Part shown: positions 1,834-59,423 of the stretch, one piece after another
How positions within the stretch are numbered: position 1 is the stretch's first letter
How the letters are laid out: each line of letters starts with the position of its first letter
Virus record (IMG/VR): IMGVR_UViG_3300045988_119573
Coordinates: 82,089-146,088 of that record
DNA: 64,000 bases
DNA from: a virus
Reading direction: 5' to 3' (one strand)
Position numbers and translations under genes: made by a program
Notes under the pieces: model-generated
Seen by the model: the letters and a program-made list of their open reading frames with translations, nothing else
The model's database searches: none
What the model was told of the DNA's origin: nothing

Positions 1834-2427
1834 TCACTCATTTTCATCGTGTTCTTCTGTCATGGACAGATTATCCGAAGTGCCTTTCCATAAGACCACA
1901 ACATTTCTTTCTAATGATTTTTGTACATCAACCACTCTCTGATTTGTTGATCCTGCCCACGGATAAGACATGTCTTTCAATTCGTCTACATACTGTCCGT
2001 CTACGAGGACATCTATGTAAGGAAGAATCTCAAGTCTGCAATCGTACATAAGATGGCTTGTTCTACGTCTTCGAGAGAACTCAGCTAAGTCCAAACCAAT
2101 ATCTTCTGCTTTATTCCCTGTATATAGCCAGATTTTTTTGTCTGGCATAAACTCTTTGACAAATTTACATATTGCAGAAACACCATCTCTATTCTCTTTT
2201 GCCAACGGTTCTCCACCAAGAATACTTAATCTTGTATATTGCGGATTAGTTAGTGGGCGTAACAATTCCAACACATCCCACGTTGTTAATTCTTTACCAC
2301 CATCAAAATCCCATGTTTCTTTATTAAAACAATTCTTACAATGGAAGTGACATCCTTGAACGAAGAGGGCTACGCCAAGCCCTTCTCCGTTGCTAATGTC
2401 CATTTTTCTTATTGAAGCATATCTCAA
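1834..2427 (-). CDS. nrdG: Anaerobic ribonucleotide reductase activating protein (radical SAM)
   Basis: CHFHCKNC (CxxxCxxC) cluster near the N-terminus; ~197 aa; start overlaps the nrdD stop. Confidence 0.85.
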   Translation of the reverse strand: MRYASIRKMDISNGEGLGVALFVQGCHFHCKNCFNKETWDFDGGKELTTWDVLELLRPLTNPQYTRLSILGGEPLAKENRDGVSAICKFVKEFMPDKKIWLYTGNKAEDIGLDLAEFSRRRRTSHLMYDCRLEILPYIDVLVDGQYVDELKDMSYPWAGSTNQRVVDVQKSLERNVVVLWKGTSDNLSMTEEHDENE

Positions 2428-2429
2428 AA

Positions 2430-3420
2430 CTATTCCTCCATACTATGATCATCTACATGAACATATCTGCTCTTAATCTCTGCCGTACGTCCTTGATTCC
2501 AGAACTGGGTGCCGACGTATCCACATGATCGTCTGGCAACATTCATCGTATTCTGATCTCTGTTACCACAATTTGGACATTCCCAGATTAATTCCCCATC
2601 AACATCAAGAATGCTAATTTCTCCATCATAACCACATTTCTGACAGTAATCACTCTTTGTATTTAACTCTGCATACATGATATGATCATAAATAAATTTC
2701 ATAATCTCAAGAACAATATCTGTATTCTTTGTCAAGTCTGCACATTCTACATAACTAATTGCACCGCCTGGACTTAATTCTTGAAATTTGCTTTCAATAT
2801 CAAGTTTTGTGAAAGGATCAATCTTTTCAAATACTGGGATATGATATGAATTTGTAATGTAATCACGATCCGTAATTCCTTCTACAATACCAAATCTTTT
2901 CTTTAAGCATTTTGCAAATTTATATGTAGTTGACTCGATTGGAGAGCCATACACACTGTATGCTAATCCTTCAGAATCTTTCCATTCATTACACTTATCG
3001 TTTAATCTCTGCATAACTTTTAAACCAAATTCCTGTTGAATAGAATGAGATTCGCCAGTCATGTATTTTACACATTCATATAACCCTGCATACCCAAGAG
3101 AAATCGTTGCATAACCATTTTCTAATAGCTTGTCAATTTTTTCTCCTTTCTTAAGTCTTGCAAAGCATCCATGCTGCCACAAAATAGGTGCAACATCAGA
3201 AGATGTCCCTTTTAATCTCTTGTACCTACATTTTAATGCCTTGTGACATAACTCTAATCTTTCATCTAAAATCTTCCAAAACGCTTCCTTGTCTTTCCCA
3301 GAAGACAAAGCTACATCTGGAAGATTGATTGTTACAACCCCCATATTGTATCTTCCGTAATATTTAGGTTTACCATTTTCATCTAAATATGGAGTTAAAA
3401 ATGATCTACACATGTTTATG
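2430..3420 (-). CDS. nrdD: Anaerobic ribonucleoside-triphosphate reductase, exon 3 (C-terminal part)
   Basis: CRSFLTPY..., NMGVVTINLPDVAL, C-terminal Zn ribbon CQKCGY...CPNCG and glycyl-radical motif RRSCGYVGT. No plausible start/RBS: the frame stays open upstream of the first Met. 5' boundary approximate. Confidence 0.8.
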
Positions 3421-3652
3421 ATATGTCGCCATACCCACTGACTAAATTATCTCTCAGAGTCCGTTACTCTCATCATTGAGCCGACCGCTTGGGGTAGGTG
3501 CTTATCTCCTACTCTACGCTGTTACACTCATCACAGCTAGTCGATACACCTTCTTATACAACTATATAAGCTTGGCACGGAATTATCTTAGGTCATCAGA
3601 TGTCTCCTCTCTAAGACTCACCCGTTAGCAATGTTAAACATTACACCCTTTA
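3421..3652 (-). ncRNA. Group I self-splicing intron 1 in nrdD (ORF-less, ~230 nt)
   Basis: Stops in all frames between two nrdD-homologous ORFs; GC-richer than flanks. Minus strand shows R-like GTATCGACTAGC and S-like GAGAGATAATTTAGTCAGTGGG (GACUA/UAGUC P7 pairing). Boundaries approximate. Confidence 0.6.
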
Positions 3653-4021
3653 AGCAAGGTTCAATCGGTTTATCCTGGGCTGTAGTTTACGCTTACCCAT
3701 GCACGGAAAACAGTTTCCATTTCCATTCGCATCAATCTTATTCTTTTTCATAATCTTTTCAGAAATGTAATCTGGAACCATTCTTTTAGCAGTACATTCT
3801 GCTGCTAATTTTGTTAAATACCAATACTCAGAATCCTCACGAATATTATCTTCTTCTAATACATACAGCAATTTAGGGAATGCGGGTGTAATGTAAACAC
3901 CGACTTCATTCTTTAATCCTTTAATTCTCTGCCGTAAGAACTCTTCAATCAGTAATGCTAATTCTTCTTTGTACTCTGTTGTTTCGTTCAAGTACATACA
4001 AACACTGAGAAATGGAGCTTG
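3653..4021 (-). CDS. nrdD: Anaerobic ribonucleoside-triphosphate reductase, exon 2
   Basis: (GQ)APFLSVCMYLNETT...NGNGNCFPCMGKRK is a middle NrdD segment. Frame open from 4021 (CAA) with no start codon; an in-frame TGA lies just upstream. Confidence 0.75.
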
Positions 4022-4430
4022 CACTGCTCCGAGTCAGACTATATCTTTACCCTCGTTATACGTTAGGTGAGAATATATAATTCTCAAAAGTAACTATATT
4101 ACTTTGTAGATGGCACTTCCCTACAATGAATTCCACATTATAGGTACAGATTTCATAGGCATATATTATTACTTAGCCTGTATATCTTAGTCGTTTGACC
4201 TTTATAAAAATTTCTCTTTATCCTTGGCACTGGATTGCTCTTATCCGTCCCAATGTTTGCAAATTATATATAGTATGATCAACTCTTTTGCTCGAAAGCA
4301 CCGATAAGAGTTCCCCAGTTAGCATAACTTCTATCACCATTTCCTATGATCCTAACCGTAAGTTATACACCCTAGATTTCTAGGTTCACCATCTGTTCAC
4401 TAACATATTTCTATGTTAGGCAGCCATTTG
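4022..4430 (-). ncRNA. Group I self-splicing intron 2 in nrdD (ORF-less, ~409 nt)
   Basis: Minus strand carries R element GGTCAAACGACTAAGATA and S element AAGATATAGTCTGACTCGGAGCAGTG at the 3' end (consensus R GUUCAACGACUA, S AAGAUAUAGUC). Exon 1 ends ...AACGGU, intron ends ...CAGUG, and the join gives in-frame ...NTNGQ|APFLSV... Confidence 0.75.
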
Positions 4431-5288
4431 ACCGTTTGTGTTGGTCATACTATTTACTTGATAGTTGAATGTCTGAACACTATCTTCGATTTCTTTCTTT
4501 AAATCTTCCTTAGCGTATTTTTCAACTAAATCTTCTGTAAAGCCACGTTTTCTATATTTATCAACATAAATATTATAACTATCTCTTACAAATGGGGCTA
4601 AATGTGTTAATGTAATTGTTGCACCGCCATATGTAGAAGATGTAACTGCTGTAACAATCTGCGTTGCAATTGTTGTTGCCGTGATTAATCTATGGGGTTT
4701 TTCAATCATTACCTCATTAACAACTGTGCCATTCTGTAGCATATCTTCAAGATTAATTAACTCGCAATTTGTAAGTGCTTTCTGCCCAAAATAATCCACA
4801 TCATGGAAATGCAAGATACCTGTATCATGAGCCTGTACGATTTCTGGTGGGAGTAAATATCTGCGAGTCATATCTTTGCACACAATACCTGCCATATAAT
4901 CTCTCTGTGTTGTTACAAGTTTTTCATTTTTATTAGAATTTTCAGTATTCCAATATTTACTGTCTCCACTAAGAAGATCTGAAATTTCTGCATCAATAGT
5001 ATTTTCATTCTCTCTCTGAAACTCTCGAACACTGCGATAACCTTCATATGCTTTTGCAGTTAATTCCTGCCCTTTCTCAACAAGCTTTTTGAATACCATT
5101 GCTTCAATTGTAGAAATGTCAATTTCTTCTGGTAATTTACTGCAATCATTTTCGATTTCTCTTGCAATCTGTTTTGCAATATTTTCCTTAATTAATCCAG
5201 ATCCATTTTTCATTGCTTTCATAATCGCTGTGTAAATTTTGGTCTTGTCGAAATCTACAACAGTACAATCTCTTTTAATTACTTTCAA
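4431..5288 (-). CDS. nrdD: Anaerobic ribonucleoside-triphosphate reductase, exon 1 (N-terminal ATP-cone part)
   Basis: MKVIKRDCTVVDFDKTKIYTAI (ATP cone); the track ORF runs 4 codons into the intron before a TAA. Confidence 0.8.
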
Positions 5289-5322: not shown

Positions 5323-5523
5323 TCATCTATATGTAACGCACCCGTCTCCTGCTTTCTTGCAGTTCAACGTATATCGTGCATCGTTACCATCACCATCAAT
5401 CTTTTTGGTTGATACGCTCTCAATTATCATGGTTTTACCTGTTTCTACATCTTTCACAAGTACCTCTTTTTCTATATGTAGTTTAGAAACTAAATTTCTA
5501 AGCTGATTAATTGTTCTGATCAA
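5323..5523 (-). CDS. Hypothetical small protein
   Basis: 66-aa ORF between nrdD and the kinase gene, overlapping the kinase ORF by 17 nt. Confidence 0.35.
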   Translation of the reverse strand: MIRTINQLRNLVSKLHIEKEVLVKDVETGKTMIIESVSTKKIDGDGNDARYTLNCKKAGDGCVTYR

Positions 5524-6097
5524 CTTCCTTTGTTGTCGCTCCTTCCGTGTCTCTAATCTGTCTTTTGAATCTCTCTAATTCAGCCATAATATTTAAACAA
5601 GTCATAGACAAACTTCCTTCATTATTAATAACTGCGTCGCATAAATCATAAGCTTCTTCAAAAGCAGATTCGTCTTTTTTCATTCTTTCATCAATTGCAT
5701 CACTTGTATCTCCACGATCTTTCATTCTCTGAATACGTGTAGAACTTGGTGTATCAATACATAATGCCAAGATATGTTTCTTATGATAATTTTCTTTTAA
5801 CTGTTTTAATCCTGGAACATCAACTACATATACGTCTGCATCATCACACTGACTTTCTGTAGCACAGTACCAATTGCCAGTGTAATGATTCTCTGCAACC
5901 TTGCCTGTAATTCTTGAATACTGGGCTAGATTTACATATGTATGATCATCAAGCTTATCTGTTCGCTTCTCTCTAGTGGTATATGATCGTAGATATTTCA
6001 GACCATAAATGTCTTCCAGATACTTCGCTGAGACACTTTTGCCTGCTCCAGATCGCCCCACCAGAGCGATTAAAACATTACTTTTATCTCCTACCAT
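5507..6097 (-). CDS. P-loop nucleoside monophosphate kinase (guanylate-kinase-like / dNMP kinase)
   Basis: Walker A LIALVGRSGAGKSVSAKYL and SYTTREKR...D..Y resembling the GMP-kinase S-x-TTR motif; sits in the nucleotide-metabolism module. Confidence 0.5.
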   Translation of the reverse strand: MVGDKSNVLIALVGRSGAGKSVSAKYLEDIYGLKYLRSYTTREKRTDKLDDHTYVNLAQYSRITGKVAENHYTGNWYCATESQCDDADVYVVDVPGLKQLKENYHKKHILALCIDTPSSTRIQRMKDRGDTSDAIDERMKKDESAFEEAYDLCDAVINNEGSLSMTCLNIMAELERFKRQIRDTEGATTKEVDQNN

Positions 6098-7057: not shown

Positions 7058-7897
7058 TTATGGCATTTCATTGTAAATTTTGCTAACATCATCTAATAAT
7101 TCTTTTGGCAAATATCTTTCTAAAAGCTCATTCGAATTATCAAGTGTTTTCTTATAGAAATCTTCTGCGATACCACCGCCAATAGCAGCAATCGTATCTG
7201 TGTCACATGGCAAAGACAATACATTTCTTAAGAATGATTCATAATCTTCGCTCTCTAAGAAACATCTGATTGCCACAGGAACACTATCTTGAACTGTCGC
7301 AGACCAAACATAATTCTTTCTATAATCATCGAGTGGTCGATCAACACCATATGTATATTGACTGGATGGATAACTTTTTAATGCATATTGATAAATTTCT
7401 TCTTTTGATTTACCCCATAGCGCCATAAAAGAACAGCCTGTTACAATCGATGCACCTTTGTAAGATTCTGAGTGGCGATGCGTTTTCTCACATGTCCATT
7501 GTGCTAAATCTATGTAATAACTCAATACGTCTGGACGATCAGCAAACCCATTAAAATACATTGTGATAGGCGAAATTCTCATGGCACATCCATTACCAAA
7601 GCTTTCATTAACACGACTACCATCATCGTGTAACCAGTCTTCGAACATTGCGCCATATCCCGTACCAGGATATTTCTTGCCATATTCTAAGTAGAACTCC
7701 CAAGGCTCTTTGATATGTTTGTGTTCATCGTCATCATCCAACAGCCACATTCCTGTTGCAATACTGAGAACTGTATCATCTGTAAATTTACATTTATCTG
7801 TAAACAATTCACAGTTCTTCCAATCTAAATCGTGAGGTCTGCGGAACTCATATTGAGAACCGCAAATATCTCCTAGAATCGCTCCAATTAAAGCCAT
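7058..7897 (-). CDS. ADP-ribosylglycohydrolase (ARH/DraG family)
   Basis: N-terminal GAILGDICGSQYEF and C-terminal DTDTIAAIGGGIAE, both signature metal-binding motifs of ADP-ribosyl-[protein/DNA] glycohydrolases. Confidence 0.8.
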   Translation of the reverse strand: MALIGAILGDICGSQYEFRRPHDLDWKNCELFTDKCKFTDDTVLSIATGMWLLDDDDEHKHIKEPWEFYLEYGKKYPGTGYGAMFEDWLHDDGSRVNESFGNGCAMRISPITMYFNGFADRPDVLSYYIDLAQWTCEKTHRHSESYKGASIVTGCSFMALWGKSKEEIYQYALKSYPSSQYTYGVDRPLDDYRKNYVWSATVQDSVPVAIRCFLESEDYESFLRNVLSLPCDTDTIAAIGGGIAEDFYKKTLDNSNELLERYLPKELLDDVSKIYNEMP

Positions 7898-15065: not shown

Positions 15066-15548
15066 TCATTTCCCTTTTAAATAATTTTTAAAGTAATACT
15101 CAAAATATAATCTAATAAACAGCCCAGAATATTTATTATCTGGCATGAAGAATATCGGAACATTGTATTTAAACCAAAAGCTGTGCAATGATCCAATGAA
15201 TGATTTCTTGTTATACTGCGTGTTGTAATTGCCATCTGCAATATCTGAGTAATTGGCGTTTTCAAGCAGAATAACTTTTGTCTCTGGTGCAAGACTTAAC
15301 TCTTTTTCAAATCTGGCACGATCTTTTGATAAATTGCCACTGATTTCTTCAAGACTTCCTTTGCGCTCAACACATACTTTGCTGTCAAAATACATATCTC
15401 TCTGAATACCAAGCTTCTCATTTGCAGGAATCATGAAACTGTAGTCACCATAATTCAATGCTTTCTTTTTATGATTTACACTTTTTCTATCGAAGTAACC
15501 TATGATATGATCAGCTTTTTGCTCCCTTGTGTCGACAAGGATTGTCAT
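15066..15548 (-). CDS. ERCC4/Mus81-type nuclease domain protein
   Basis: ILVDTREQ ... GDY ... VERKGSLEE matches the ERCC4 nuclease motif (D/E...ERK). Confidence 0.5.
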   Translation of the reverse strand: MTILVDTREQKADHIIGYFDRKSVNHKKKALNYGDYSFMIPANEKLGIQRDMYFDSKVCVERKGSLEEISGNLSKDRARFEKELSLAPETKVILLENANYSDIADGNYNTQYNKKSFIGSLHSFWFKYNVPIFFMPDNKYSGLFIRLYFEYYFKNYLKGK

Positions 15549-56787: not shown

Positions 56788-57237
56788 CTAGGATGCCATT
56801 GCATTCATGTACGATAACATGCCGTTTTGTATTAAAATGCCATGTCCTATTTTTAACATTAAAGATAGATCAGATATTCTTCCCCAATACTCTAAAAGAT
56901 TATTCTTTGGAATTGTTCTTCCTTGCTCTAAATACACCTGTGATACCATTTTTAATCCATTACTGGTATTTGGATAAATGGTTACATGTGTCGGTATCCA
57001 GTTCCTTAATTTTTTTGTAATTGGATACACGTTAATCTCTGTGCTCGTATTATTACAAATATTATTAGAATATACGATGACTGGTCTTTTCCCATGCAAG
57101 ATATGACTACCTTCAATTTTCGGCAAATCTGCAAAATATATTCCCCAAACTTGAGGATTTTGATATTTGCCATATACATATTCTTTTCTTTTTCTGTTAT
57201 CGTTTCCTTTTCTTTCTTTGTTAGTATATCCGTTCAT
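56788..57237 (-). CDS. PemK/MazF-fold domain protein (toxin-like), start revised
   Basis: GIYFADLPKIEGSHILHGKRPVIVYSNNICNNTSTEINVYPITKK resembles MazF/PemK (GDI..V.F....G.E..G.RP.VV.S.D..N.....V.V.PITS). The track start lies inside the predicted -10; internal ATG (MNGYTNK) has a GAGGGA RBS. Confidence 0.45.
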   Translation of the reverse strand: MNGYTNKERKGNDNRKRKEYVYGKYQNPQVWGIYFADLPKIEGSHILHGKRPVIVYSNNICNNTSTEINVYPITKKLRNWIPTHVTIYPNTSNGLKMVSQVYLEQGRTIPKNNLLEYWGRISDLSLMLKIGHGILIQNGMLSYMNAMAS

Positions 57238-57287
57238 TTTTACGTCCCTCAACTTTCCCCAGTTGCATTTTTTGTTTTCATGAATTA

Positions 57288-57345
57288 AATATACCATACT
57301 TTTTGCACCCTGTCAATAGGTGCAAGAAAGAAAGTTAATTTTTGT
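57288..57345 (-). promoter_or_regulatory. Promoter TTGACA-17-TATATT with a 23-bp palindrome over the -35 (copy 2 of the repeated element)
   Basis: Minus strand AAAAATTAACTTTCTTTCTTGCACCTATTGACAGGGTGCAAAAGTATGGTATATT; compare copy 1 at 12751..12797. Confidence 0.5.
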
Positions 57346-57729: not shown

Positions 57730-58476
57730 CTATAAAATCCTAATAATTTGTTCGTAAATTGCAATCGCATTATCTTCTGGAAAGTTCTGGTTCACATGCA
57801 TATGCCCAAAGAACCATTTTTGATAAATCACTTTGTCTTTTATTTGCTGTAAATAATCCGTTAACTTGTCAGATTTGTACACTCCTGATCCTTGATCCAT
57901 TTGTCTTAAAACAGATGTGTATGGACTATGTGTAATAACGTAATCTACTTGGAAGTCATTTTTCTCTAAATTCATCACACCTTCTGCCATCTCTTTATCA
58001 GATGGCAATTCTTCTTTCCACCAGCTCACATGATTAATCCTAAACATTTTGTCATAATCTCTGTACCATTCATTAATTCTTGGATCGTCTGGCTCTAAAA
58101 TTCCATCTTGCACATCATGGGAACTGGCACCGCCAAATGTAAAGAATTTCTTTCCTTGAATTTCAAACACCTGTCCACGCATAAGATGAAATACAGAGTC
58201 TTTGATCTTGTGAATCTTTCCGCCACACCATTTCTCTACAGGATATTGATATAAGCGATCATAATTTTCATGGTTCCCACATACAAACAAAGTAGTAAAT
58301 GGTTTGTTGTCCAACCATTCCAGATTATGTCGTTCTTCTTTTGTGTCATGCCACAATCCAAAATCTCCGCAAATGATCACGTAATCATCTTTAGTTAACT
58401 CTACTCCTTCTGGGAAAGAATGACTGTTTAATCGAGTCATCCAATCCCCATGCGTATCTCCTGTTACAAATATCAT
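57730..58476 (-). CDS. Calcineurin-like metallophosphoesterase
   Basis: GDTHGD, GDFG, GNHE, GHMH motifs in canonical order. Confidence 0.75.
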   Translation of the reverse strand: MIFVTGDTHGDWMTRLNSHSFPEGVELTKDDYVIICGDFGLWHDTKEERHNLEWLDNKPFTTLFVCGNHENYDRLYQYPVEKWCGGKIHKIKDSVFHLMRGQVFEIQGKKFFTFGGASSHDVQDGILEPDDPRINEWYRDYDKMFRINHVSWWKEELPSDKEMAEGVMNLEKNDFQVDYVITHSPYTSVLRQMDQGSGVYKSDKLTDYLQQIKDKVIYQKWFFGHMHVNQNFPEDNAIAIYEQIIRIL

Positions 58477-59423
58477 AAAATAACTCCTTCCAGCAGCTCT
58501 TTTAGTGCCTGCATATTGTCCTCATGTACCCTATCATTTTGATCTGCATCCTCCTTACCAGTCTCATAAGCACACTTGATAATCTCCATAACTCTATCAT
58601 AACTCACATTAATAACATTTTCCTTTAATCCGTTAAATGCTCCGCTGATAATATTCTTGTACGTCTGAGCAATATCATCAAATAACACATGAGTTTCCTC
58701 TTCTGTAATTGTAGCATATAAAAACGTCATTGCAGGACTACTATGGTTCAATAATCGCATAAGTGTATACAATACATTCTGATCATCTTTATGATCAACA
58801 AGTGTCCAATACACAAAGTTCTTTCGTAGTGTATGTGTACCAATGTTATCCTCAATTCCAACTGCTTTAGCACCTTTTTTAACAAAGTCTAAAGCATTTG
58901 CTTCTGTCATGTGTCCTGATCCAGATTTACATGTTCCGAAAACATAATCATCCATTGGCACTTCGCCATCAATCTTGACATCATATTTAGTTCCTGCGAC
59001 AGCTTCAAAGAAAATATCCACTGCTTCGGTTACTAAGTCGTTAAAGTATACAGTTCTAAATTTCTTTGTTTTCTTTTCCTGCTTACGAGTCTTATCTTCC
59101 AATAAATCGCCCCATTTGAGTCTAACAATATCAGAGATACGATATGCTGTATTGTTTCCAACTGTAACCAAAAGATTATTTCTGGCAGCTACATATCGTT
59201 TGTACTCTGTGTACGATTTATCAATCTGGTCTCTAAAATATGCATTAAAGGCTGCAAATTGTTTTCTGTCTTTGATCGGATACACTAAAGATGATACGCC
59301 TTTTTGTTTGTTAGATCGAGTCCATTTAGGACTTCCATCCTTACGTCTTTTAATCTTTGTTTCAGATTCTTCTGCGTTATTATTGTTTACTGTTTCAATA
59401 ACTTCAAACTGTGTTGCTGCCAT
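58473..59423 (-). CDS. int: Tyrosine site-specific recombinase / integrase
   Basis: RISDIVRLKWGDL (Arg box), HTLRKNF, LLNHSSPAMTFLYAT (H...Y box II). Confidence 0.75.
   Translation of the reverse strand: MAATQFEVIETVNNNNAEESETKIKRRKDGSPKWTRSNKQKGVSSLVYPIKDRKQFAAFNAYFRDQIDKSYTEYKRYVAARNNLLVTVGNNTAYRISDIVRLKWGDLLEDKTRKQEKKTKKFRTVYFNDLVTEAVDIFFEAVAGTKYDVKIDGEVPMDDYVFGTCKSGSGHMTEANALDFVKKGAKAVGIEDNIGTHTLRKNFVYWTLVDHKDDQNVLYTLMRLLNHSSPAMTFLYATITEEETHVLFDDIAQTYKNIISGAFNGLKENVINVSYDRVMEIIKCAYETGKEDADQNDRVHEDNMQALKELLEGVIL

What the first reader, a model, noticed from the sequence alone, without database searches (positions are those of the whole stretch)
2430..5288. nrdD (class III RNR) interrupted by two ORF-less group I introns
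Three consecutive minus-strand ORFs are each homologous to consecutive parts of NrdD (ATP cone; middle; glycyl-radical C-terminus). They are separated by 232-nt and 409-nt segments that are GC-richer and closed in all frames. Both segments show group I catalytic-core elements: intron 2 has R GGTCAAACGACTAAG and S AAGATATAGTCTG; intron 1 has GTATCGACTAGC and AGATAATTTAGTC. For intron 2 the predicted junction (exon ...AACGGU | intron | CAAGCUCCA...) rejoins the frame as ...NTNGQ|APFLSV. T4 nrdD also has a group I intron, but two introns in one nrdD, both lacking homing-endonuclease ORFs while a free-standing LAGLIDADG/HNH-like endonuclease sits elsewhere, is noteworthy.
Basis: partly seen in the sequence, partly recalled or inferred. 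Interest (0 to 1): 0.6.

Follow-up and report, generated by a model that had tools for sequence, protein, structure and literature searches.

The report
Two group I introns split nrdD
A phage gene for the anaerobic ribonucleotide reductase is interrupted by two small, ORF-less, probably self-splicing group I introns; this is a real but familiar situation in phages, and the standard Rfam intron model fails to detect either intron.

Summary
On the minus strand, nrdD is three exons (5288-4431, 4021-3695, 3410-2430) separated by intron A (4430-4022, 409 nt) and intron B (3694-3411, 284 nt, not 232). The spliced 721-aa protein matches Pfam NRDD end to end and aligns without gaps at both junctions to solved NrdD structures. 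Near-identical phage contigs carry both introns, only A, only B, or, among more distant relatives, neither. The intron-less alleles match the predicted junctions to the base. Both inserts have the group I architecture: a U·G pair at the 5' splice site, a terminal G, P1/P10 guide sequence, a P3/P7 pseudoknot, P4-P6, P7.1/P7.2 and P8. Covariation is strong (26/56 and 35/75 pairs compensatory; 0/500 shuffles). Intron B is colinear with the T4 nrdD (sunY) intron. Intron A shares its 5' module with SPO1-type DNA-polymerase introns. Rfam RF00028 detects neither intron, although it scores T4 at 105 bits; both carry a two-hairpin insert between P3 and J3/4. No free-standing homing endonuclease was found in the window. 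Multi-intron phage RNR genes are already known, so these are new members of a known kind. Splicing itself is inferred, not shown.

The parts
4431..5288 (-). nrdD exon 1 (286 codons: ATP-cone and N-terminal part of the reductase); ends ...AAC GGU, with U at position -1
4022..4430 (-). Intron A, 409 nt, ORF-less group I intron (SPO1-type, IA2-like); begins CAAAUGGCUG, ends ...GCAGUG (terminal G at 4022)
   Evidence: The junction is identical to intron-less allele L006. Structure counts: 95.4% of cells paired, 35/75 pairs compensatory, 0/500 shuffles. MFE z-score -3.74.
4421..4424 (-). Intron A internal guide sequence GCUG pairing with exon CGGU (P1, 4 bp with U·G at the splice site); P10 to the 3' exon is only 2 bp
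   Evidence: in L060 the same position gives a 4-bp P10 (AUUG/CAAU)
4319..4386 (-). Intron A two-hairpin module inserted between the 5' strand of P3 (4388-4394) and J3/4: hairpin a (4371-4384), then stem b (4360-4368 / 4322-4330) capped by stem c (4333-4350). It is followed by J3/4 UAA and P4.
   Evidence: Model R2, built from 12 introns of other phages, hits 4314-4396 at 81.2 bits, E 1e-20. 16/20 pairs are compensatory and 97.9% of cells are paired.
4108..4114 (-). Intron A P3 3' strand GCCAUCU (pairs with 4388-4394); together with P7 it forms the group I pseudoknot
   Evidence: (3 compensatory pairs)
4188..4192 (-). Intron A P7 5' strand GACUA, within R element GGUCAAACGACUAAG; its partner UAGUC is at 4037-4041, within S element AAGAUAUAGUC
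   Evidence: (P7 covaries to GGUCA/UGACC in the CB457P1 polIII intron)
3695..4021 (-). nrdD exon 2 (109 codons, in frame at both ends); ends ...UGC AUG GGU
3411..3694 (-). Intron B, 284 nt, ORF-less group I intron (T4 sunY-type IA2 with a J3/4 insert and no P9.1/P9.2 or ORF); begins AAGCGUAAAC, ends ...AAACAUG (terminal G at 3411)
   Evidence: The junction is identical to intron-less alleles L007-L009 and L016-L018. 97.6% of cells paired, 26/56 pairs compensatory, 0/500 shuffles. It is colinear with the T4 nrdD intron. Model R1 hits 3411-3549 at 112.6 bits.
3676..3685 (-). Intron B internal guide sequence CUACA|GCCCA: GCCCA pairs with the 5' exon UGGGU (P1, U·G at the splice site) and CUACA pairs with the 3' exon UGUAG (P10)
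   Evidence: The guide covaries with a synonymous exon change in L021 (A-U to G-C where the Cys codon is TGC).
3630..3659 (-). Intron B short version of the two-hairpin J3/4 insert (hairpin a 3647-3659, stem b 3630-3642), absent from the T4 intron
3440..3542 (-). Intron B catalytic core 3' half: P7 GACUA (3538-3542) / UAGUC (3440-3444), P7.1 (3518-3537), P7.2 (3494-3512), P3 3' strand GGUCGG (3481-3486, pairs with 3663-3668), P8 (3453-3480)
2430..3410 (-). nrdD exon 3 (326 codons plus stop). It starts with the codon of the catalytic Cys (CRSFL; T4 Cys290) and contains the glycyl-radical domain.
1834..2427 (-). nrdG (radical-SAM activase of NrdD), intact and immediately downstream
   Evidence: Fer4_12 E 1e-36, Radical_SAM

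Best explanation
nrdD in this phage genome fragment is a functional gene carrying two group I introns that are removed from the mRNA by the standard two-step guanosine-initiated self-splicing reaction.

In each intron, a guide sequence near the 5' end pairs with the last bases of the upstream exon and places a U·G wobble at the 5' splice site (P1). A P3/P7 pseudoknot flanked by the P4-P6, P7.1/P7.2 and P8 helices forms the catalytic core. The intron's last base is G, and in intron B a 5-bp P10 aligns the downstream exon. Splicing joins ...NTNG|QAPF... and ...CMG|CRSF... and restores a full-length NrdD.

Intron B is a compact relative of the T4 nrdD (sunY) intron. Intron A is a relative of the SPO1-type DNA-polymerase introns. 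Both carry a conserved two-hairpin insert between P3 and J3/4. Neither encodes a homing endonuclease. Their presence or absence among nearly identical phages implies recent gain or loss by recombination between co-infecting phages, possibly helped by endonucleases supplied in trans.

Shown here: gene structure, exact junctions, RNA architecture with covariation, and homology to validated ribozymes. Inferred: actual splicing and the mobility route.
For: (1) The spliced product is a complete NrdD: Pfam NRDD 1-562/562, E 1e-180, and gapless alignment across both junctions to solved NrdD structures.

(2) Natural excision controls. Among alleles 95-99% identical in protein, both introns occur in the window and L010-L015, only B in L006, and only A in L007-L009 and L016-L018. 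More distant alleles are uninterrupted. The intron-less sequences read ACAAACGGT|CAGGCTCCA and TGTATGGGG|TGTAGATC, exactly the predicted junctions.

(3) Every site-B intron allele has U at -1 (GGT) and every intron ends in G.

(4) Intron B structure on 10 sequences: 97.6% of cells paired, 26/56 pairs with compensatory change, 0/500 shuffles as high, and slid controls at most 42% paired. The P10 guide covaries with a synonymous exon change.

(5) Intron A structure on 6 sequences (P5 and the 3' tail trimmed): 95.4% paired, 35/75 compensatory, 0/500 shuffles. Both P3 and P7 carry compensatory changes. The MFE fold recovers the same helices with z = -3.74.

(6) Homology to validated ribozymes. Intron B aligns helix by helix with the T4 nrdD intron. 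Some family members (L023, L059, L049) share T4's guide AGCUCAUGUAAAA, and L023/L059 share its P7.1 hairpin UCCCUGAUGAAUGUAAGGGA; the window's copy has a variant guide (GCCCA) and a compensated P7.1 (GCUGU/ACAGC). Model R1, built without window-like sequences, hits the window at 3411-3549 (112.6 bits) and T4 at 74.6 bits. T4 itself scores 105 bits with RF00028. Model R2, built from SPO1-type, Twort-like and other introns, hits intron A at 81.2 bits. The SPO1L4 polA intron shows the same module.

(7) Population variation spares the structure. In intron A, 18 of 22 variable columns are unpaired and the 4 paired ones keep pairing. In intron B, 10 of 14 are unpaired and the 4 paired ones keep pairing.

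(8) nrdG is intact downstream.
Against: No splicing data exist; everything is sequence inference.

Rfam RF00028 gives no hit at all, even at E<=10 on the isolated intron.

Intron A has a weak P1 (4 bp, two of them G·U) and only a 2-bp P10, so its efficiency could be low or depend on a protein factor.

The MFE of intron B is no better than that of shuffled sequence (z -0.47).

Both introns lack the long P9.1/P9.2 3' domain of the T4 intron.

The covariation alignments were partly hand-curated: helices were chosen by me, and P5 and the 3' tail were trimmed for intron A.
Confidence: 0.93

Rival explanations
1. The inserts are group I-derived but no longer splice, or only one of them does, so nrdD is a recently inactivated pseudogene in this phage lineage.
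For: Intron A has a weak P1 and P10. Both introns lack an endonuclease ORF and the extended 3' domain of the T4 intron. Rfam gives no hit.
Against: The exons stay intact and in frame at 95-99% identity across 13 contigs. Variation within the introns avoids or preserves paired positions. The guide sequences still match the exons, with covariation. nrdG is intact. The same introns persist in several recombinant backgrounds.
Confidence: 0.05
2. The inserts are not introns. They are other insertions (a miniature transposon, an intein remnant or a translational-bypass element), and NrdD is made as separate fragments or by ribosome hopping.
For: The third ORF happens to start with ATG (3413-3411) and the second with GTG (4024).
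Against: Stops occur in all frames, which excludes inteins. There are no terminal inverted or direct repeats typical of transposons, and the structure is a group I pseudoknot with covariation. Lengths of 284-409 nt are far beyond the 50-nt T4 gene 60 type of bypass. No Shine-Dalgarno-like sequence precedes the internal starts (sequence read). Real inteins at the same site in other contigs look quite different: they are open in frame, starting with Cys and ending with His-Asn before Cys.
Confidence: 0.01

Closest known systems
Bacteriophage T4 nrdD (sunY) group I intron (subgroup IA2; Rfam RF00028 member)
   Same: Same host gene. It is colinear with intron B in P1 guide, P3, P4-P6, R element/P7, P7.1, P7.2, P8, S element and P9 with a GNRA loop. 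Some intron B family members share T4's guide AGCUCAUGUAAAA (L023, L059, L049) and its P7.1 hairpin (L023, L059). Model R1, built from intron B relatives, scores T4 at 74.6 bits.
   Different: T4's intron is 1033 nt and carries the I-TevII ORF in a long P9.1/P9.2 3' domain; intron B ends 9 nt after P9 and has no ORF. T4 lacks the two-hairpin insert between P3 and J3/4. The insertion sites differ: T4 sits in codon Tyr180, intron A lies 32 nt downstream of that (after the Gly190 equivalent), and intron B lies before the Cys290 equivalent. RF00028 scores T4 at 105 bits and the window introns not at all.
SPO1-type DNA polymerase group I introns of Bacillus phages (SPO1, SP82 and relatives) and Twort-like staphylococcal polA introns
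   Same: Intron A shares the whole 5' module with them at about 80% identity and with covariation: P3 5' strand, GAA, hairpin a, GUGU, stem b/c with an AGGAAAUG loop, GCUAAC and P4. They also share the R element type GGUC(A/U)AACGACUA.
   Different: Those introns sit in polA and carry HNH or other endonuclease ORFs (in Goe26 the ORF lies in the P8 loop). Intron A is in nrdD, has no ORF, and has three hairpins between P3' and J8/7.
Multi-intron phage genes: Twort nrdE (two introns), Twort orf142 (three introns), Brochothrix phage A9 nrdE (three introns plus an intein), Lactococcus phage 949 nrdD (non-coding intron)
   Same: More than one group I intron in a single phage nucleotide-metabolism gene, some ORF-less, inserted at conserved functional residues (PMC3653736; PMC3984707).
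   Different: Different genes or hosts and different insertion sites. I found no described nrdD with this particular pair of sites, but the literature tools available cover only part of the field.

Membership tests
Group I intron (self-splicing, subgroup IA2-like) | P1 helix formed by the 5' exon end and an internal guide sequence, with a U·G wobble at the 5' splice site | tested here: met
   Intron B: UGGGU/GCCCA, with U·G in 10/10 homologues. Intron A: CGGU/GCUG, only 4 bp.
Group I intron (self-splicing, subgroup IA2-like) | Terminal guanosine (omega G) at the 3' end, and P10 between the guide sequence and the 3' exon | tested here: met
   Both introns end in G. Intron B has a 5-bp P10 with one compensatory change to the exon. 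Intron A has only a 2-bp P10 (4 bp in its relative L060).
Group I intron (self-splicing, subgroup IA2-like) | Core topology P3-P4-P5-P6-P7-P3'-P8-P7' with a P3/P7 pseudoknot, supported by covariation | tested here: met
   (26/56 pairs compensatory, 97.6% paired). (35/75 compensatory, 95.4% paired). In both cases 0/500 shuffles reached the observed value and slid controls stayed at or below 44% paired.
Group I intron (self-splicing, subgroup IA2-like) | Conserved R and S elements (J6/7-P7 and J8/7-P7') that build the guanosine-binding P7 | tested here: met
   AACGACUA...AAGAUAUAGUC in intron A and AUCGACUA...AGAUAAUUUAGUC in intron B. They are near-identical to the T4 sunY elements.
Group I intron (self-splicing, subgroup IA2-like) | P7.1/P7.2 hairpins between P7 and P3' (the subgroup IA signature) | tested here: met
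   All 5 pairs of P7.1 and 4 of 5 pairs of P7.2 are compensatory in the intron B family. Both hairpins are present and covarying in intron A.
Group I intron (self-splicing, subgroup IA2-like) | Score at or above the gathering threshold of Rfam RF00028 (Intron_gpI) | tested here: not met
   No hit at gathering score, at E<=10 on 3.1 kb, or on 316 nt. The positive control, the T4 nrdD intron, scores 105.3 bits. The likely cause is the 35-66 nt insert between P3 and J3/4 that the model does not allow. A published study notes that Rfam and GISSD models can miss phage introns (PMC11878797).
Group I intron (self-splicing, subgroup IA2-like) | Homology to an experimentally self-splicing member | tested here: met
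   Model R1 (no window-like sequences) hits both the window's intron B and T4 sunY. Model R2 (built from SPO1-type and other introns) hits intron A. That the T4 and SPO1 introns self-splice is established knowledge (cited in PMC3984707 and PMC3653736).
Group I intron (self-splicing, subgroup IA2-like) | Guanosine-dependent self-splicing with exon ligation | not testable with these tools
   Needs in vitro transcription with GTP labelling, or RT-PCR. The only proxy is that intron-less alleles equal the predicted ligated exons.
Mobile (homing) group I intron | Intron-encoded homing endonuclease ORF | tested here: not met
   The longest open stretch is 41 codons. Related site-B introns L054 and L063 do carry a 175-183 aa ORF in the P6 loop.
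Class III ribonucleotide reductase NrdD (host gene) | Full-length NRDD domain with the glycyl-radical C-terminus and the catalytic Cys, plus an adjacent NrdG activase | tested here: met
   NRDD 1-562/562, Gly_radical, ATP-cone; MGCRSFL aligned to T4 Cys290; nrdG at 1834-2427.
Intein | In-frame insert open throughout, starting with Cys/Ser and ending with His-Asn before Cys/Ser/Thr | tested here: not met
   There are 8-14 stops in every frame of both inserts. True intein-like inserts at the same site occur in L033, L045, L051 and L079.

The most novel reading that the evidence does not exclude
These two introns belong to a widespread group of phage IA2-like group I introns that Rfam does not detect. 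The group is defined by a conserved, covarying two-hairpin module inserted between the 5' strand of P3 and J3/4, with consensus GAA-hairpin-GGGUGU-hairpin-GCUAAC. The module is found in nrdD, polA and polIII-alpha genes of Bacillus, Staphylococcus, Enterococcus, Clostridium and Enterocloster phages. It may act as a peripheral clamp or protein-binding platform that allows very compact introns without P2 or the P9.1/P9.2 domain. The site-B family would then have arisen from a T4-sunY-like intron that moved to a second nrdD site with a similar 5' exon (AUGAGU to AUGGGU) while keeping the same guide sequence.
Probability: 0.3. Interest if true: 0.45.

Novelty: new member of a known kind. Interest (0 to 1): 0.35.

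Why it matters
For annotation: automatic pipelines will call this nrdD as three fragments or a pseudogene, and an Rfam scan will not rescue it. The same holds for unannotated introns seen in Enterocloster phage CB457P1 and in many viral contigs.

For intron biology: the set of near-identical phages carrying both, either or neither intron is a ready-made natural system for studying gain and loss of ORF-less introns. An intron family and inteins compete for the same codon boundary, in front of the catalytic cysteine.

The conserved J3/4 module could be used to build a better covariance model for phage introns.

None of this changes the known picture of phage group I introns.

Tried and rejected
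Rfam was run three times on the window and once on five phage loci with related introns. It gave no Intron_gpI hit. The hit on T4 shows this is a sensitivity gap, not evidence against introns.

ARAGORN found nothing in the window.

Two classic papers (SPO1 and Twort introns) are not in the library. A literature search for a 'P3.1/P3.2' nomenclature found nothing relevant. I therefore could not establish whether the J3/4 hairpins have a published name.

I used a 3'-half model (R1) and a module model (R2) instead.

The MFE z-score for intron B is uninformative.

Helices considered and dropped:
- Intron A 103-109 with 370-376 as P3. It competes with the strongly covarying local stem b and has no counterpart in CB457P1.
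- UACAG/CUGUA (intron A 248-252 / 282-286). It is broken in most near-identical copies.
- A 2-bp 'P2' in intron B, which is not conserved.
- Whether GC of GCUAAC pairs with the upstream GU (extending stem b) or with AAGC (extending P3). This cannot be decided because all the positions are invariant.

A Pfam scan of 43 window ORFs for HNH, LAGLIDADG or GIY-YIG domains was negative. A regex scan found no further introns of this type in the window.
Full report
**Gene structure**

The region 2430-5288 holds three consecutive minus-strand ORFs. Reading the minus strand, I joined GGT(4431)|CAA(4021) and GGT(3695)|TGT(3410). This gives a 721-aa protein that aligns over its whole length, with no gap at either junction, to solved NrdD structures. 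The matches are 9d3x at E 9e-135 and T4 NrdD 1h78 at E 3e-117. The junctions fall at NGQ(T/A)PF and at MG|CRSFL, where the Cys corresponds to T4 Cys290.

Pfam gives NRDD 1-562/562 (E 1e-180), Gly_radical and ATP-cone for the spliced product. The next ORF (1834-2427) is the NrdG activase.

The intervening sequences are therefore 4430-4022 (409 nt, 'intron A') and 3694-3411 (284 nt, 'intron B'). Both inserts have 8-14 stops in every frame. Intron B is 43% GC, intron A 35.7%, and the exons 33-35%.

**Natural excision controls**

A search of viral contigs with exon 2 returned 80 loci. tblastn of the spliced protein against them shows the following among alleles 95-99% identical to the window:
- both introns: L010-L015;
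- intron B only: L006;
- intron A only: L007-L009 and L016-L018.

About thirty more distant alleles are uninterrupted.

The intron-less alleles read ACAAACGGT|CAGGCTCCA at site A and TGTATGGGG|TGTAGATC at site B. That is exactly the predicted ligated exons. Every allele with a site-B intron has GGT (U at -1), and every intron ends in G.

Three synonymous exon positions (-10, -7 and -1 of site B) co-segregate perfectly with intron B among 13 near-identical alleles. The rest of the gene shows a recombination mosaic.

**Intron B is a group I intron of the T4 sunY type**

I aligned ten site-B introns of 255-319 nt from different contigs (A1) and laid a group I structure on the alignment. The helices are:
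- P1: UGGGU/GCCCA, with U·G at the splice site;
- P10: CUACA with the 3' exon UGUAG;
- P3: CCGAUU/GGUCGG;
- P4: ACGGG/UCCGU;
- P5;
- P6: GCC/GGU;
- P7: GACUA/UAGUC, crossing P3;
- P7.1, P7.2 and P8;
- P9, with a GNRA loop.

Of 549 cells, 97.6% form standard pairs. Twenty-six of 56 pairs show changes on both sides. None of 500 shuffles reaches any of the five measures, and sliding the partners by 1-3 columns drops pairing to 34-42%. In L021 the guide base changes from A to G exactly where the downstream Cys codon is TGC instead of TGT.

A direct alignment shows the T4 nrdD intron to be colinear with this family from the guide sequence to P9. Family members L023, L059 and L049 share T4's guide AGCUCAUGUAAAA. 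L023 and L059 share its P7.1 hairpin UCCCUGAUGAAUGUAAGGGA, while the window's copy has GCUGU/ACAGC at the same position. There are two differences: T4 lacks a roughly 35-nt two-hairpin insert between P3 and J3/4, and T4 has a long 3' domain carrying I-TevII.

Covariance model R1 covers the 3' half and was built from seven site-B introns, none of them window-like. It hits the window once, at 3411-3549 (112.6 bits, E 1e-19), ending on the predicted terminal G. It also hits the T4 intron core at 74.6 bits.

**Intron A is a group I intron of the SPO1 type**

BLAST of intron A against phage genomes found its positions 37-120 at about 80% identity just after the 5' splice site of intervening sequences in several genes:
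- the polA gene of SPO1-like Bacillus phages (Goe26, SPO1L4);
- a Twort-like staphylococcal polA;
- the nrdD genes of Enterococcus phage EFP01 and Clostridium phage CS01;
- the polIII-alpha gene of Enterocloster phage CB457P1.

This module consists of the P3 5' strand, GAA, hairpin a, GGGUGU, a long stem b capped by stem c with the loop AGGAAAUG, then GCUAAC and P4. On 12 instances from other phages, 97.9% of cells pair and 16 of 20 pairs are compensatory. Model R2, built from those instances, hits the window once, at 4314-4396 (81.2 bits, E 1e-20).

For the whole intron I used the window copy, two close variants, the divergent site-A intron of L060 (357 nt) and two CB457P1 introns. P5 and the 3' tail were trimmed so that MAFFT kept the helices in register. 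On this alignment 95.4% of cells pair and 35 of 75 pairs are compensatory, including three pairs each in P3 and P7. No shuffle of 500 reaches the observed values, and slid controls stay at or below 44%.

The unconstrained MFE fold of intron A recovers P2, P3, the module, P4, P5, P7.1, P7.2 and two of the P8 hairpins, with z = -3.74. The weak points are P1 (CGGU/GCUG, 4 bp, two of them wobbles) and P10 (2 bp). The relative in L060 has a 4-bp P10.

**Population variation**

Among 12 copies of intron A, 18 of 22 variable columns lie in unpaired positions. The four in helices all change to another standard pair. Among 8 copies of intron B the figures are 10 of 14 and four of four. This fits selection for the fold.

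**Why Rfam is silent**

RF00028 gives nothing on the window at gathering score, at E<=10 on 3.1 kb, or on 316 nt holding only intron B. It also gives nothing on five phage loci with related, ORF-bearing introns. It scores the T4 nrdD intron at 105.3 bits.

The obvious structural difference is the insert between P3 and J3/4, a place where the model expects three nucleotides. I could not test this directly. A 2025 survey of Bastillevirinae introns also notes that Rfam and GISSD models may miss phage introns (PMC11878797).

**Context and novelty**

Split nrdD genes are the commonest split RNR genes in sequenced phages. RNR genes with two or three introns are described for Twort nrdE and Brochothrix phage A9 nrdE, and a non-coding intron for Lactococcus phage 949 nrdD (PMC3653736). 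ORF-less introns that move with the help of trans-acting endonucleases are also known (PMC3984707).

In the 80 loci fetched here, nrdD is interrupted near residues 162, 222, 286 (site A), 395 (site B), 402, 417, 611 and 692. Site B holds introns in at least 18 loci and intein-like inserts in four (L033, L045, L051, L079). Site A holds introns in 15 loci, two of them carrying ORFs (L059, L077).

T4's own intron sits in codon Tyr180. That is 32 nt upstream of the position equivalent to site A.

The window's gene is thus a new combination of members of known intron lineages, not a new kind of element.

**Free-standing endonuclease**

Pfam scans of 43 window ORFs of 110-364 aa found no HNH, LAGLIDADG or GIY-YIG domain. 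Larger and smaller ORFs were not scanned.

**Verdict**

The finding is real and correctly interpreted in its essentials. I put 0.93 on both inserts being splicing-competent group I introns. About 0.05 goes to one or both being inactive relics, and about 0.01 to anything else.

The finding is ordinary for phage biology. It has three moderately interesting aspects: both introns are invisible to Rfam because of a conserved J3/4 module, all four presence/absence states occur in near-identical genomes, and introns and inteins coincide at the catalytic cysteine codon.

Noticed in passing
window 45367-45504 (-): A tRNA-like gene (Rfam tRNA, 46 bits) with normal acceptor, D and T arms. Its 6-bp anticodon stem GGCAAU/AUUGCC encloses an AU-rich insert of about 69 nt instead of a 7-nt loop. 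ARAGORN reports no tRNA in the window. The insert has no group I core motifs. It could be a disrupted tRNA, an odd small intron or an integration scar.
   Followed up: partly
L033 2828-3931, L051 2834-3925, L045 and L079 (exon 3 starts at 3944 and 3926): At exactly the same codon boundary as intron B (MG|CRS, the catalytic Cys), these nrdD alleles carry in-frame inserts of about 1.1 kb. The inserts start with a Cys codon and end with His-Asn codons before Cys, so they are inteins. Introns and inteins therefore use one site.
   Followed up: partly
L001 3960-4294 and about 5468-6085; L104 about 390-890 and 1199-1702 (Enterocloster phage CB457P1, OP172753.1): The polIII-alpha gene of this isolated phage is annotated as three 'hypothetical protein' CDSs split by unannotated inserts. 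The first insert (335 nt, junction PD|IDLD) is a group I intron of the intron A type. Another gene near the genome start carries two copies of the same J3/4 intron module, at L104 425-511 and 1224-1313.
   Followed up: partly
window 3696-3705 (exon positions -10, -7 and -1 of site B): Synonymous bases G, C, T (against T, T, G in intron-less alleles) co-segregate perfectly with intron B in 13 near-identical alleles. This is a short co-conversion tract or a requirement of P1, given the U at -1.
   Followed up: yes
L054 2828-3645 and L063 2810-3681: Site-B introns of the same family that carry a 175-183 aa ORF in the P6 loop. The ORF has an HNH-like ...IDH(D/I)D...N... motif but no Pfam hit at E<=0.001. 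They are possible sources of a trans-acting homing endonuclease for the ORF-less copies.
   Followed up: partly
window 3453-3480 (P8 of intron B): The sequence AUGAUGA...CUGA resembles box C/D and gives weak snoRNA hits (E 4-9). It might form a kink-turn, but the CUGA is CGGA in close relatives.
   Followed up: no
L023, L059, L049 (site-B introns) versus L105 7835-7848 (T4): These site-B introns have the same guide sequence, AGCUCAUGUAAAA, as the T4 nrdD intron. The 5' exons differ by one base (AUGGGU against AUGAGU), which is tolerated as a G·U pair. This suggests past movement of one intron lineage between two nrdD sites.
   Followed up: partly
L016 about 2060-2100: In this contig the sequence upstream of intron A is not nrdD exon 1. 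The intron match starts at its base 8 and there is no exon-1 tblastn hit. This is a rearrangement or an assembly break at the intron.
   Followed up: no
window 56788-57297 and 58473-59423 (-): A MazF/PemK-like toxin ORF and a tyrosine-integrase ORF lie in an otherwise lytic-looking, single-strand gene array. The array also includes an ADP-ribosylglycohydrolase (7058-7897) and an ERCC4 nuclease (15066-15548).
   Followed up: no
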